A stretch of 64,000 bases of DNA, taken from the human T2T-CHM13v2.0 reference genome, Homo sapiens. Of this stretch, positions 7,460 to 8,419 are shown piece by piece. How positions within the stretch are numbered: position 1 is the first letter of the stretch; the number at the start of each line of letters is the position of its first letter. The notes below the pieces were generated by a model, which saw only the letters and a list, made by a program, of their open reading frames with translations, made no database searches and had not been told where the DNA came from. A program made the translations under genes and the position numbers. The DNA is taken from assembly GCF_009914755.1 (NCBI RefSeq), contig NC_060936.1; one strand, written 5' to 3'.

Positions 7460-8419
7460 TTATAAACCGTCCAAAGCACCACTGCCCCAAGACTGTGCTC
7501 CCATTTTACAGCTGAGGGCAAGGGCACTGTGAGGTGAGGGAGAATCTGGCCCATCTGCAGCCCAGGCCCCCGGGGGCGCGCGCCGCTCTTTAGGAAGGAG
7601 CAGCTTTGTTTCCCACCAGCCCTGCACTGTGGCGAGCGGGCCGGGGCTGCCGGGCGACGCCCGGTCGCCGTCGCCGCCGCCGCCAGTGATCCATAGCGTG
7701 AGCAGGACGACCAGCGCCCCGGTGCCCAGCGCCCCCACGAAGCCGGTGAGGAGGCCGAGCGCCAGCGGCCCCGCCCAACCCATGGGGCTCCGCTCGTACA
7801 GGGGCTGCGGCAGGCGCTCCACGATCAGCTGCAGGGCGTCCCAGTCCGGCGCGGGGACCGCGGCGCGCCGGGGGCGCGGGGCCGGGGCAAAGGGCACGCG
7901 GGCGGCGGCGCCGGGCCGCGGCAGGAAGCGCTGCCCGAACTTGCGCAGCTGCAGCGTCGCCTGCTGGTGGAGGTTCTTGCCCAGCTCCCTGGCCACGTCC
8001 GGGCGGCCGCTGCGCCGCAGGGCCCGAGCCAGGCGGTCCCAGGACAGGGACGCGGCCTGGGGGGCCAGCCAGGCCGCCAGCGCCTCCCGGCAGCCGTCGG
8101 ACACCTCTCCAGGCCCGGCTACCCTGCCCGCCGGGTCCTCGGCCGCCTCTCGCCGCCGCCGCCGGCTCGGAGACCCCGACGTGGTGTTGAGCGGCTCAGG
8201 CCGCGCCAGCCGGTCTTCAGAAAGCCGGGACAACTCGGCCTCCACGTCGGGCTCGGGCGCCTCCAGGAGCGACCGGAAATGGCCGCACTCCTCCGGGGTC
8301 AGCAGCTCGGCCAGACGGACGGCTGCGTGAGGGCCCATAGCGTCCACGGCCCCCGCCGGAGCCAGCGCCCAAACCCAGAGCGCCAGGACCAAGGCGCTCG
8401 CCAGAGTCCGCGCCGCCAT
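7460..8419 (-). CDS. TMDD1: Transmembrane and death domain protein 1 (C12orf81), single coding exon, 319 aa
   Basis: First in-frame ATG at 8419 in strong Kozak context (CCAGGG-ATG-G). Signal peptide [24 protein letters not shown], death-fold-like signature LAAWL...[21 protein letters not shown], hydrophobic segment at aa 215-245. TAA at 7462-7460. Position between SCN8A and FIGNL2 fits the known gene order. Confidence 0.88.

What the first reader, a model, noticed from the sequence alone, without database searches (positions are those of the whole stretch)
7865..8290. TMDD1 looks like a convertase-processed precursor that sheds a disulfide-linked two-chain ectodomain
There are two furin-type R-X-X-R sites: RRRRR|EA (aa 86-90; 8164-8150) in a loop, and RPRR|AA (aa 182-185; 7876-7865) about 30 aa before the TM. 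The only two ectodomain cysteines, C45 and C110, lie on either side of the first site. Cleavage at both would release aa 25-90 and aa 91-185 possibly joined by C45-C110, leaving a membrane stub with a Gly-rich helix (GLLTG, a GxxxG motif). This is prohormone or shed-ligand architecture and is my best candidate for an undescribed signalling system. The caveat is that Arg runs arise easily in GC-rich DNA.
Basis: inference. Interest (0 to 1): 0.8.

Follow-up and report, generated by a model that had tools for sequence, protein, structure and literature searches.

The report
Conserved convertase site in sperm TMDD1
TMDD1 is not an unknown hormone precursor but a membrane subunit of the sperm fertilisation complex, and the outward-facing loop of its death domain carries a furin-type cutting motif, conserved from fish to human, that nobody seems to have tested.

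Summary
RRRRR (aa 86-90), RPRR (aa 182-185) and the only two ectodomain cysteines, C45 and C110, lie exactly where stated.

The gene is no longer undescribed. [quoted passage not shown] It is a core subunit of the sperm SPARK fertilisation complex, and male knockouts are sterile in zebrafish and mouse. Its text does not mention furin or convertase, nor any cleavage of TMDD1.

Site 1 is deeply conserved. R-x-[K/R]-R occurs between the two invariant cysteines in 109 of 119 teleost sequences (4.0 expected from shuffles). It occurs in 78 of 105 mammal-type sequences (19.2 expected). P4, P2 and P1 are 94-97% fixed while P3 varies. The motif sits in a predicted disordered H3-H4 loop.

Site 2 is conserved in placentals (68 of 73) but absent in marsupials (0 of 10) and weak in fish.

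Best reading, at about 0.55: convertase cleavage at site 1 gives a disulfide-stapled two-chain death domain that stays membrane-anchored. The shed-ligand or prohormone reading is unlikely, at about 0.05. Cleavage itself is untested.

The parts
7460..8419 (-). TMDD1 coding sequence: single exon, 319 aa plus stop
   Evidence: Open frame translated. There are 108 homologues with E <= 0.001, and every one named for TMDD1 or C12orf81 is mammalian. One search found 189 more, of which the 120 listed are almost all named teleost TMDD1.
8339..8419 (-). Signal peptide (aa 1 to about 24-27)
   Evidence: N-terminal hydrophobic stretch aa 1-29 on the Kyte-Doolittle scan. The preprint gives the signal peptide as 1-27.
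7934..8338 (-). Extracellular death-fold domain (aa 28-162), six helices
   Evidence: AF2 helices 30-39, 42-53, 59-72, 107-121, 127-136 and 140-162. The VIA-align list of 50 is dominated by death-fold chains (DED, DD, PYD, CARD) at Z 8.1-5.1 over residues about 23-160. Pfam Death scores only 15.8 bits against a cut-off of 22.6.
8285..8287 (-). C45 (helix 2), first half of the conserved disulfide
   Evidence: Invariant in A1, A2 and A3 and 100% conserved in 105 mammal-type sequences; the matching Cys is 100% conserved in 119 teleost sequences. The preprint legend calls the pair a conserved disulfide.
8090..8092 (-). C110 (helix 4), second half of the conserved disulfide
   Evidence: Same calls as for C45.
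8102..8203 (-). H3-H4 loop (aa 73-106), disordered and hypervariable
   Evidence: Coil with 10-residue block pLDDT of 50-67. The inter-Cys stretch is 39-165 aa long in mammals. Flanking loop columns show only 21-50% identity.
8150..8164 (-). Site 1: RRRRR followed by EA (aa 86-90), a consensus proprotein-convertase motif R-x-[K/R]-R
   Evidence: Position. Conservation. Cleavage itself is inferred, not shown.
8142..8164 (.). Period-3 (GCC)n repeat covering the Arg-run codons
   Evidence: Tandem Repeats Finder reports 7.3 copies. The Arg run varies in length among primates: 4 in gibbon, 5 in human, 11 in macaque.
7787..7933 (-). Pro/Ala-rich stalk (aa 163-211), predicted disordered
   Evidence: Coil with pLDDT about 56-57. 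Length is highly variable among mammals.
7865..7876 (-). Site 2: RPRR followed by AA (aa 182-185), a second furin-type motif conserved in placentals only
   Evidence: Position. Present in 54 of 58 non-muroid placentals, 14 of 15 muroids and 0 of 10 marsupials; echidna has RQPR. Present in 21 of 119 teleosts.
7790..7843 (-). Conserved juxtamembrane motif (aa 193-210; W-D-x-L-x-L-I-V-E-R-x-P-x-P-x-Y-x-R)
   Evidence: Alignments. L198 and its equivalents are nearly invariant. The motif lies on the membrane side of site 2.
7682..7786 (-). Transmembrane helix (aa 212-246) with conserved small-residue motif G222-x3-G226 (7742-7756)
   Evidence: Hydropathy scan and AF2 helix 212-246. G222 is invariant and G226 at least 90% conserved.
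7463..7681 (-). Cytoplasmic tail (aa 247-319), disordered and weakly conserved
   Evidence: pLDDT about 45-49. The preprint calls the tail weakly conserved.

Best explanation
TMDD1 is a type I membrane protein of the sperm (acrosomal) membrane. Its luminal or extracellular part is a six-helix death-fold domain stapled by the C45-C110 disulfide between helix 2 and helix 4. It works as a membrane-anchored core subunit of the SPARK fertilisation complex. This much is shown in the 2026 preprint.

The rest is inferred here. The long disordered loop between helices 3 and 4 carries a proprotein-convertase site, R-x-[K/R]-R followed by D, E or A. In the late secretory pathway or the forming acrosome, furin or a related convertase would cut after R90. 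In mammals the germ-cell enzyme PCSK4 is a candidate. The cut would split the domain into an N-chain (helices 1-3, about aa 28-90) and a C-chain (helices 4-6, stalk, transmembrane helix and tail). The helical bundle and the disulfide would hold the chains together, and the product would stay in the membrane.

Site 2 (RPRR, aa 182-185) is a lineage-restricted second motif found in placentals and some teleosts. It may allow ectodomain release or may be a binding patch. I rate its cleavage at roughly one in three.
For: Identity and function:
- TMDD1 co-purifies with TMEM81 and SPACA6 in sperm, is co-depleted with DCST1, DCST2 and TMEM81, and male knockouts are sterile in zebrafish and mouse. It has an extracellular death domain with a conserved disulfide. 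(Preprint 10.64898/2026.05.13.724128: abstract, section 8 and searched passages read.)
- The death fold is confirmed here.

Site 1 conservation:
- R-x-[KR]-R occurs between the two Cys in 109 of 119 teleost sequences (4.0 expected from 200 shuffles of each loop).
- It occurs in 78 of 105 mammal-type sequences (19.2 expected), 18 of 30 unnamed non-mammal representatives (2.4 expected) and 0 of 2 Xenopus.
- The pattern of constraint matches convertase specificity. In 119 teleosts P4 is R in 97%, the commonest P3 residue reaches only 52% (at least 8 residue types), P2 is K or R in 94%, P1 is R in 97% and P1' is D in 79%. In 105 mammal-type sequences R90 is 97% and R89 92% conserved, against 21-50% for neighbouring loop columns. 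All columns share one tree, so relatedness alone does not explain the contrast.
- P4 and P1 are invariant in a 40-sequence fish-to-human alignment, alongside the two Cys.

Accessibility and enzymes:
- The motif lies in predicted coil in both the human and a tuna model.
- The topology puts it in the convertase compartment: a signal peptide plus one transmembrane helix.
- Furin prefers R-x-K/R-R. PCSK4 is restricted to germ cells. Tetrabasic linkers cut by convertases with the chains left disulfide-linked are well established, for example pro-C3 (review PMC9296861, passages).
- Pcsk4-null mice are described as infertile (review PMC8996948, passages).
Against: - No direct evidence of cleavage exists. 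The preprint text has 0 occurrences of furin, convertase, western, blot or kDa. 'Cleav' and 'proteoly' occur only for trypsin settings and CRISPR.
- The preprint's peptide tables could not be read.
- Xenopus lacks any basic motif at the site (0 of 2). About 7 of the 30 unnamed representatives lack even R-x-x-R or a dibasic pair near Cys2.
- Only 2 of 15 muroid rodents keep the P4 Arg. Most have Q-R-R-R or Q-Q-R-R. In the house mouse, where the knockout phenotype was shown, the copy next to Cys2 is degenerate. So cleavage, if real, is not universally required.
- The disulfide is invariant even where the motif is absent, so it does not exist only to hold cut chains.
- A conserved basic patch could be a binding epitope instead.
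- The shuffle nulls ignore phylogeny.
Confidence: 0.55

Rival explanations
1. The basic motifs are not cut. They are conserved electrostatic binding epitopes in flexible segments. Possible partners are acidic surfaces of SPARK subunits such as DCST1/2, or anionic glycans or lipids. On this view TMDD1 stays a single chain.
For: - TMDD1 is predicted by the preprint's authors to contact DCST1/2 and to sit centrally in SPARK.
- In percomorph fish the stalk cluster (R-V-R-K-R-K/R-V-R) directly abuts the conserved juxtamembrane motif. It often has Lys rather than Arg at the would-be P1, which looks more like a patch than a site.
- Muroid rodents and Xenopus function without a canonical site 1.
- The disordered loops could order on binding; pLDDT is 50-67 in the monomer model.
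Against: Constraint at site 1 falls on P4, P2 and P1 while P3 is free, and P1' is acidic or small. That is the convertase recognition pattern rather than a general charge requirement. The rest of the loop is hypervariable in length and sequence, which is unusual for an interface.
Confidence: 0.3
2. One reading: cleavage at both sites releases a soluble, disulfide-linked two-chain ectodomain that acts as a hormone-like or shed ligand. A membrane stub stays behind.
For: - Both motifs exist and both lie in predicted disordered segments.
- Site 2 is R-x-R-R in 68 of 73 named placentals.
- Type I precursors released at a consensus furin site just above the membrane are known in reproduction, for example the ZP proteins (review PMC13319360, passages).
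Against: - TMDD1 protein is measured in mature sperm, co-purifies with membrane proteins there and is needed in the sperm itself.
- The preprint's figure legend lists knockout zebrafish carrying a transgenic Tmdd1-3xFLAG-mScarlet3 among the genotypes tested; I could not see the figure, so whether the tagged protein restores fertility was not seen.
- Site 2 as R-x-[KR]-R is present in 0 of 10 marsupials and 21 of 119 teleosts. It is absent from the cyprinid and salmonid sequences printed.
- The transmembrane glycines and the juxtamembrane motif on the stub side are among the most conserved parts.
- No receptor or signalling readout is known.
Confidence: 0.05
3. The Arg runs are by-products of GC-rich DNA and (CGG)n slippage and have no function.
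For: - The CDS is 74.5% G+C.
- In the human ectodomain the chance of two or more clusters after shuffling is 0.084.
- A period-3 repeat lies over site 1.
- Arg-run length varies among primates and canids.
Against: Teleosts keep the motif mostly as R-A-K-R with Lys at P2 and varied P3, in 109 of 119 sequences against 4.0 expected. P4 and P1 are invariant across 40 fish-to-human sequences. Site 2 is kept in 85 of 105 mammal-type sequences against 2.6 expected, inside a stalk of very variable length.
Confidence: 0.05

Closest known systems
Convertase-processed, disulfide-linked multi-chain secretory proteins (pro-C3, C4 and C5; proinsulin type)
   Same: A tetrabasic R-x-K/R-R linker exposed in the secretory pathway. 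The resulting chains stay joined by a disulfide that brackets the cut, and the basic residues may then be trimmed by carboxypeptidases (review PMC9296861, passages).
   Different: In TMDD1 the motif lies inside one small helical domain (the H3-H4 loop of a death fold), not between large domains. The product would remain membrane-anchored. Cleavage has not been shown.
TMDD1 as described in the SPARK preprint (10.64898/2026.05.13.724128)
   Same: This is the same gene. It is type I with an extracellular death domain (aa 26-167), a conserved disulfide and a transmembrane helix at 215-244, and it is essential for fertilisation.
   Different: The preprint's text treats it as a single chain and does not mention convertase motifs or processing. 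The conserved site in the loop is what this report adds.
Intracellular death-fold domains (Fas, FADD, PIDD, RAIDD, DED, PYD, CARD)
   Same: Six-helix bundle. Best structural matches are Z 8.1 (MC159 DED), 8.0 (2of5_H) and 7.8 (FADD DD), each over about 84-90 aligned residues.
   Different: TMDD1's domain is extracellular, disulfide-stapled and has a 34-residue disordered H3-H4 insert. Pfam Death scores below its cut-off (15.8 against 22.6 bits). Foldseek gave no match at E <= 0.001.
Zona pellucida precursors with a consensus furin cleavage site above the transmembrane helix
   Same: A type I reproductive protein with a polybasic site in the membrane-proximal stalk, comparable to site 2 (review PMC13319360, passages).
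   Different: TMDD1 has no ZP module or hydrophobic patches. Site 2 is not conserved outside placentals and some fish, and TMDD1 remains on sperm.
Furin-primed class I viral fusion glycoproteins with disulfide-tethered subunits (recalled from general knowledge, no call)
   Same: A convertase cut in an exposed loop and two chains kept together, as part of a machine linked to membrane fusion.
   Different: The P1' side of TMDD1 is acidic and Ala-rich, not a hydrophobic fusion peptide. The fold is different. The preprint's authors point to the DCST1/2 tip, not TMDD1, as the hydrophobic element.

Membership tests
Proprotein-convertase (furin-type) substrates | R-x-[K/R]-R motif with Arg at P1 and P4 | tested here: met
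   RRRR(R) at aa 86-90 and RPRR at aa 182-185. The furin preference R-x-K/R-R is taken from PMC9296861.
Proprotein-convertase (furin-type) substrates | Motif faces the lumen or extracellular space | tested here: met
   N-terminal signal-like hydrophobic segment plus a single transmembrane helix after both sites. The preprint states type I topology. This rests on prediction, not experiment.
Proprotein-convertase (furin-type) substrates | Motif in an accessible, flexible segment | tested here: met
   Coil with low or moderate pLDDT in the human model (site 1 block 50-52, site 2 block 57). The tuna model shows coil 77-97 with blocks of 68-73.
Proprotein-convertase (furin-type) substrates | P4, P2 and P1 conserved among orthologues | tested here: met
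   Met for site 1. For site 2 it is met in placentals only.
Proprotein-convertase (furin-type) substrates | Cleavage demonstrated (two chains, inhibitor-sensitive) | not testable with these tools
   The readable text of either preprint has no blot or N-terminal data.
Death-domain superfamily | Six-helix antiparallel bundle resembling solved death-fold domains | tested here: met
   Six helices. The list of 50 VIA-align rows is dominated by death-fold chains at Z 8.1-5.1. These Z values are moderate for helical bundles, so the homogeneity of the list carries the argument.
Death-domain superfamily | Pfam Death (PF00531) above the gathering score | tested here: not met
   15.8 bits against 22.6, aa 108-148 only. 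Some teleost orthologues do carry a precomputed PF00531. The preprint likewise needed PSI-BLAST iterations.
Prohormone or shed-ligand precursors | A conserved release site that frees the active part from the membrane | tested here: not met
   Site 2 as R-x-[KR]-R is present in 0 of 10 marsupials and 21 of 119 teleosts, and the cyprinid and salmonid sequences printed lack it.
Prohormone or shed-ligand precursors | Product found free or secreted and acting on another cell through a receptor | not testable with these tools
   The published data place TMDD1 in mature sperm within a membrane complex.

The most novel reading that the evidence does not exclude
Convertase cleavage of the TMDD1 death-domain loop is a maturation or priming step of the SPARK fertilisation machine. 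The single chain would be cut in the acrosomal pathway, by PCSK4 in mammals and furin-type enzymes in fish. The disulfide-tethered two-chain form would be the one competent for complex assembly, or for the activation step the SPARK authors postulate. Failure of this cut would then contribute to the infertility of Pcsk4-null males. It would be the first convertase-processed death-fold domain.
Probability: 0.15. Interest if true: 0.85.

Novelty: new member of a known kind. Interest (0 to 1): 0.55.

Why it matters
SPARK is proposed as the vertebrate machine that couples sperm-egg recognition to fusion, and its authors speculate that it needs an activation step.

A convertase motif kept for the whole fish-to-human span, in the central and essential subunit, gives a concrete and cheaply testable maturation step. 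It offers a candidate substrate linking germ-cell convertases (PCSK4) to fertilisation failure.

It also bears on three practical matters:
- how AlphaFold or cryo-EM models of SPARK should be built (one chain or two);
- how variants in the Arg-run repeat of infertile men should be read;
- where tags can safely be placed in the protein.

If the motif proves uncut, that would show a conserved basic docking epitope instead.

Tried and rejected
- Foldseek of the whole human model against the PDB gave no match at E <= 0.001. The best was the Fas death domain at E 1.2. VIA-align was needed to see the fold.
- Pfam gave only a sub-threshold Death match.
- The profile search with alignment A1 returned almost only mammals plus Xenopus. 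A second profile of non-mammal sequences was needed to reach named teleosts.
- The 56 representatives (P0110-P0165) carry no names there; later searches named a few, and the Atlas look-up gave only 'Chordata'. I therefore could not assign the 30 unnamed sequences used in the counts to birds, reptiles or amphibians, and the sauropsid state of the sites is not established.
- No invertebrate TMDD1 (reported in the preprint) was recovered here.
- No PDB chain matches the family by sequence (0 at E <= 0.01).
Table S1 lists the PRM peptides and could show peptides that span or abut the sites.
- The C45-C110 distance could not be measured because the structure tool returns no coordinates. The disulfide rests on cysteine invariance and the preprint's legend.
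- ProP or PiTou scoring is not available here.
- An R-x-R ER-retention reading was considered and dropped, because such signals act on the cytosolic side and these motifs are luminal (general knowledge).
- 28 of the 284 collected sequences were dropped from the counts as fragments, fusions or exon-skipped models.

Full report
**Observation.** Window 7460-8419 on the minus strand translates to the 319-residue TMDD1 protein. A script confirmed every coordinate in the finding.
- RRRRR is at aa 86-90 (8164-8150) and RPRR at aa 182-185 (7876-7865).
- C45 is at 8287-8285 and C110 at 8092-8090. The only other cysteine, C304, is in the tail.
- GLLTG is at aa 222-226, inside a hydrophobic segment whose core starts near aa 219.
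- There is an N-terminal signal-like segment.

The CDS is 74.5% G+C with 31 Arg. Shuffling the human ectodomain yields two or more separate R-x-[KR]-R clusters in 8.4% of 20,000 trials. The site-1 codons sit in a period-3 (GCC)n repeat.

**What the gene is.** A full-text search for TMDD1 found 12 papers. Two are relevant.

The first is the bioRxiv preprint 10.64898/2026.05.13.724128. I read its abstract, section 8 and many searched passages. It reports the following:
- TMDD1 co-purifies with TMEM81 and SPACA6 from zebrafish and mouse sperm.
- It is one of four proteins depleted in all SPARK-mutant sperm.
- Males lacking it are sterile in both species.
- It has 'a unique disulfide bond' formed by conserved cysteines.

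The second preprint, 10.64898/2026.05.14.724122 (passages), calls it an acrosomal membrane protein.

Neither text contains 'furin' or 'convertase'. The SPARK text contains no 'western', 'blot' or 'kDa'. A search for convertase, sperm-egg fusion, IZUMO1 and cleavage and one for C12orf81 found nothing on TMDD1 processing. C12orf81 was one of the PhyloCSF 'new' coding genes of 2019 (PMC6886504, passage). So the gene is no longer undescribed, but its processing appears unaddressed in what I could search.

**Fold.** AF2 with a 30-sequence alignment gives helices 30-39, 42-53, 59-72, 107-121, 127-136 and 140-162. It gives a coil at 73-106 (block pLDDT 50-67), a disordered stalk at 163-211 (about 56-57), a transmembrane helix at 212-246 and a disordered tail. 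Foldseek found nothing at E <= 0.001, though its top hits were Fas and FADD death domains. VIA-align against 48,161 chains returned a list dominated by death-fold domains, at Z 8.1-5.1 over residues about 23-160. Pfam Death is sub-threshold. No PDB chain matches by sequence. Both basic sites therefore lie in predicted flexible segments: site 1 in the H3-H4 loop, with C45 on helix 2 and C110 on helix 4.

**Orthologues.** One search gave 108 homologues, and all the named ones are mammals. One search gave 62 representatives without names. One search, a profile of non-mammal sequences, gave 189 hits. The 120 listed are almost all named teleost TMDD1, from eels and bonytongues to tunas. One search named Xenopus laevis and X. 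tropicalis. Of the 284 sequences held, 256 could be anchored on both cysteines. The other 28 (fragments, fusions, exon-skipped models) were dropped.

**Site 1.** Both cysteines are invariant in all three curated alignments.

R-x-[KR]-R between the cysteines (expected values come from 200 shuffles of each loop):

| Set | With motif | Expected |
|---|---|---|
| Teleost sequences | 109 of 119 | 4.0 |
| Mammal-type sequences | 78 of 105 | 19.2 |
| Unnamed non-mammal representatives | 18 of 30 | 2.4 |
| Xenopus | 0 of 2 | 0.0 |

Column by column:
- In 119 teleosts, P4 is R in 97%. The commonest P3 residue, A, reaches 52%, and at least eight residue types occur there. P2 is K or R in 94%, P1 is R in 97% and P1' is D in 79%.
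- In 105 mammal-type sequences, R90 is 97%, R89 92%, R88 79% and R87 74% conserved. Neighbouring loop columns are 21-50% conserved, and the loop varies greatly in length.
- In a 40-sequence fish-to-human alignment the P4 and P1 arginines are invariant, like the cysteines.
- A tuna model also places the motif in coil, five residues before helix 4.

Because all columns share the same phylogeny, the contrast between fixed P4, P2 and P1 and free P3 is not an effect of relatedness. It is the recognition pattern of furin-type convertases, R-x-K/R-R (PMC9296861).

Exceptions:
- Xenopus lacks the motif.
- Several unnamed representatives lack it.
- Only 2 of 15 muroid rodents keep the P4 Arg; most have Q-R-R-R or Q-Q-R-R.
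- The house mouse has a degenerate proximal copy and a dibasic copy within a duplicated insert.

**Site 2.** R-x-[KR]-R in the last 22 stalk residues, for the named mammals by clade:

| Clade | With motif |
|---|---|
| Non-muroid placentals | 54 of 58 |
| Muroid rodents | 14 of 15 |
| Marsupials | 0 of 10 (one Arg only) |
| Echidna | 0 of 1 (has R-Q-P-R) |

For whole sets, the motif is present in 85 of 105 mammal-type sequences against 2.6 expected, and in 21 of 119 teleosts against 4.1 expected. R-x-x-R is present in 72 of 119 teleosts against 18.8 expected. Percomorphs carry a polybasic cluster that abuts the conserved juxtamembrane motif. The cyprinid and salmonid sequences printed do not. 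Site 2 is thus real and selected in placentals but is not a family-wide feature.

**Interpretation.** That is the architecture of proteins cut into disulfide-linked chains, such as pro-C3 with its tetra-arginine linker. PCSK4 is germ-cell restricted, and its loss is described as causing infertility, so an enzyme is at hand in mammals.

I therefore rate cleavage at site 1 at about 0.55. The product would be a two-chain death domain that remains anchored in SPARK.

The shed-ligand or prohormone reading gets about 0.05, for these reasons:
- TMDD1 is present and needed in mature sperm within a membrane complex.
- The release site is lineage-restricted.
- The stub-side motifs (juxtamembrane motif, G222, G226) are among the best conserved parts.

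The main rival, at about 0.3, is that the basic motifs are uncut docking epitopes. Pure chance gets about 0.05.

**What is shown and what is inferred.** Shown are the sequence features, their conservation and the predicted fold and disorder. Taken from the preprints are function, topology and the disulfide. Inferred are the cleavage, the enzyme and the consequences.

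Noticed in passing
P0084, P0086, P0088, P0091, P0093 and unnamed P0081-P0083, P0089 (aligned to window about 8150-8230): Murine rodents (Mus, Apodemus, Grammomys) carry a tandem duplication of about 35 aa in the H3-H4 loop. It repeats the end of helix 3 plus the basic motif. Grammomys and Apodemus keep a basic motif in both copies. Mus musculus keeps only a dibasic one in the distal copy, and its proximal copy is degenerate.
   Followed up: partly
window 8142-8164: The Arg run is encoded in a period-3 (GCC)n repeat. 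Its length varies among close relatives: 4 Arg in gibbon, 5 in human, 7 in red colobus, 11 in macaque. Canids have an R/W/A repeat expansion at the same place. The repeat may be polymorphic in people. This was not checked.
   Followed up: partly
window 7790-7843 and 7742-7756: The juxtamembrane motif (W-D-x-L-x-L-I-V-E-R-x-P-x-P-x-Y-x-R) and the transmembrane glycines G222 and G226 are conserved from fish to human. Yet the motif is predicted as low-confidence coil in the monomer model. This is probably a partner-binding segment of SPARK.
   Followed up: no
P0141, P0143, P0144, P0148, P0151, P0157, P0161, P0164: Eight unnamed, fish-like gene models skip the segment that encodes helices 4-5. They join the sequence a few residues after the basic motif directly to the G-K-N-I-N helix. 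An exon boundary therefore seems to lie just after site 1 in fish. The human gene is a single exon (hub annotation), whereas zebrafish tmdd1 has at least three exons. A retrogene origin of the mammalian copy was not examined.
   Followed up: no
P0152, P0166, P0168 (Xenopus laevis and X. tropicalis): Xenopus TMDD1 keeps both cysteines but has no basic motif at site 1 and none at site 2. It is a natural 'non-cleavable' form that could serve as a control.
   Followed up: partly
P0124: One unnamed representative has a 182-aa inter-cysteine stretch filled with Asn-rich short repeats. This shows how freely the loop accepts insertions.
   Followed up: no
window 8180-8188 (N78-T-T): The only N-glycosylation sequon of the ectodomain, N78, lies 8 residues before the Arg run. 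In the alignment it is seen at this position in anthropoid primates only (N-T-T or N-I-T); the aye-aye has N-T-S one residue further on.
   Followed up: no
window 7963-8042 and 8151-8650: RefSeq 'silencer' and 'enhancer' functional elements listed by the hub overlap the TMDD1 coding exon. They were not examined.
   Followed up: no
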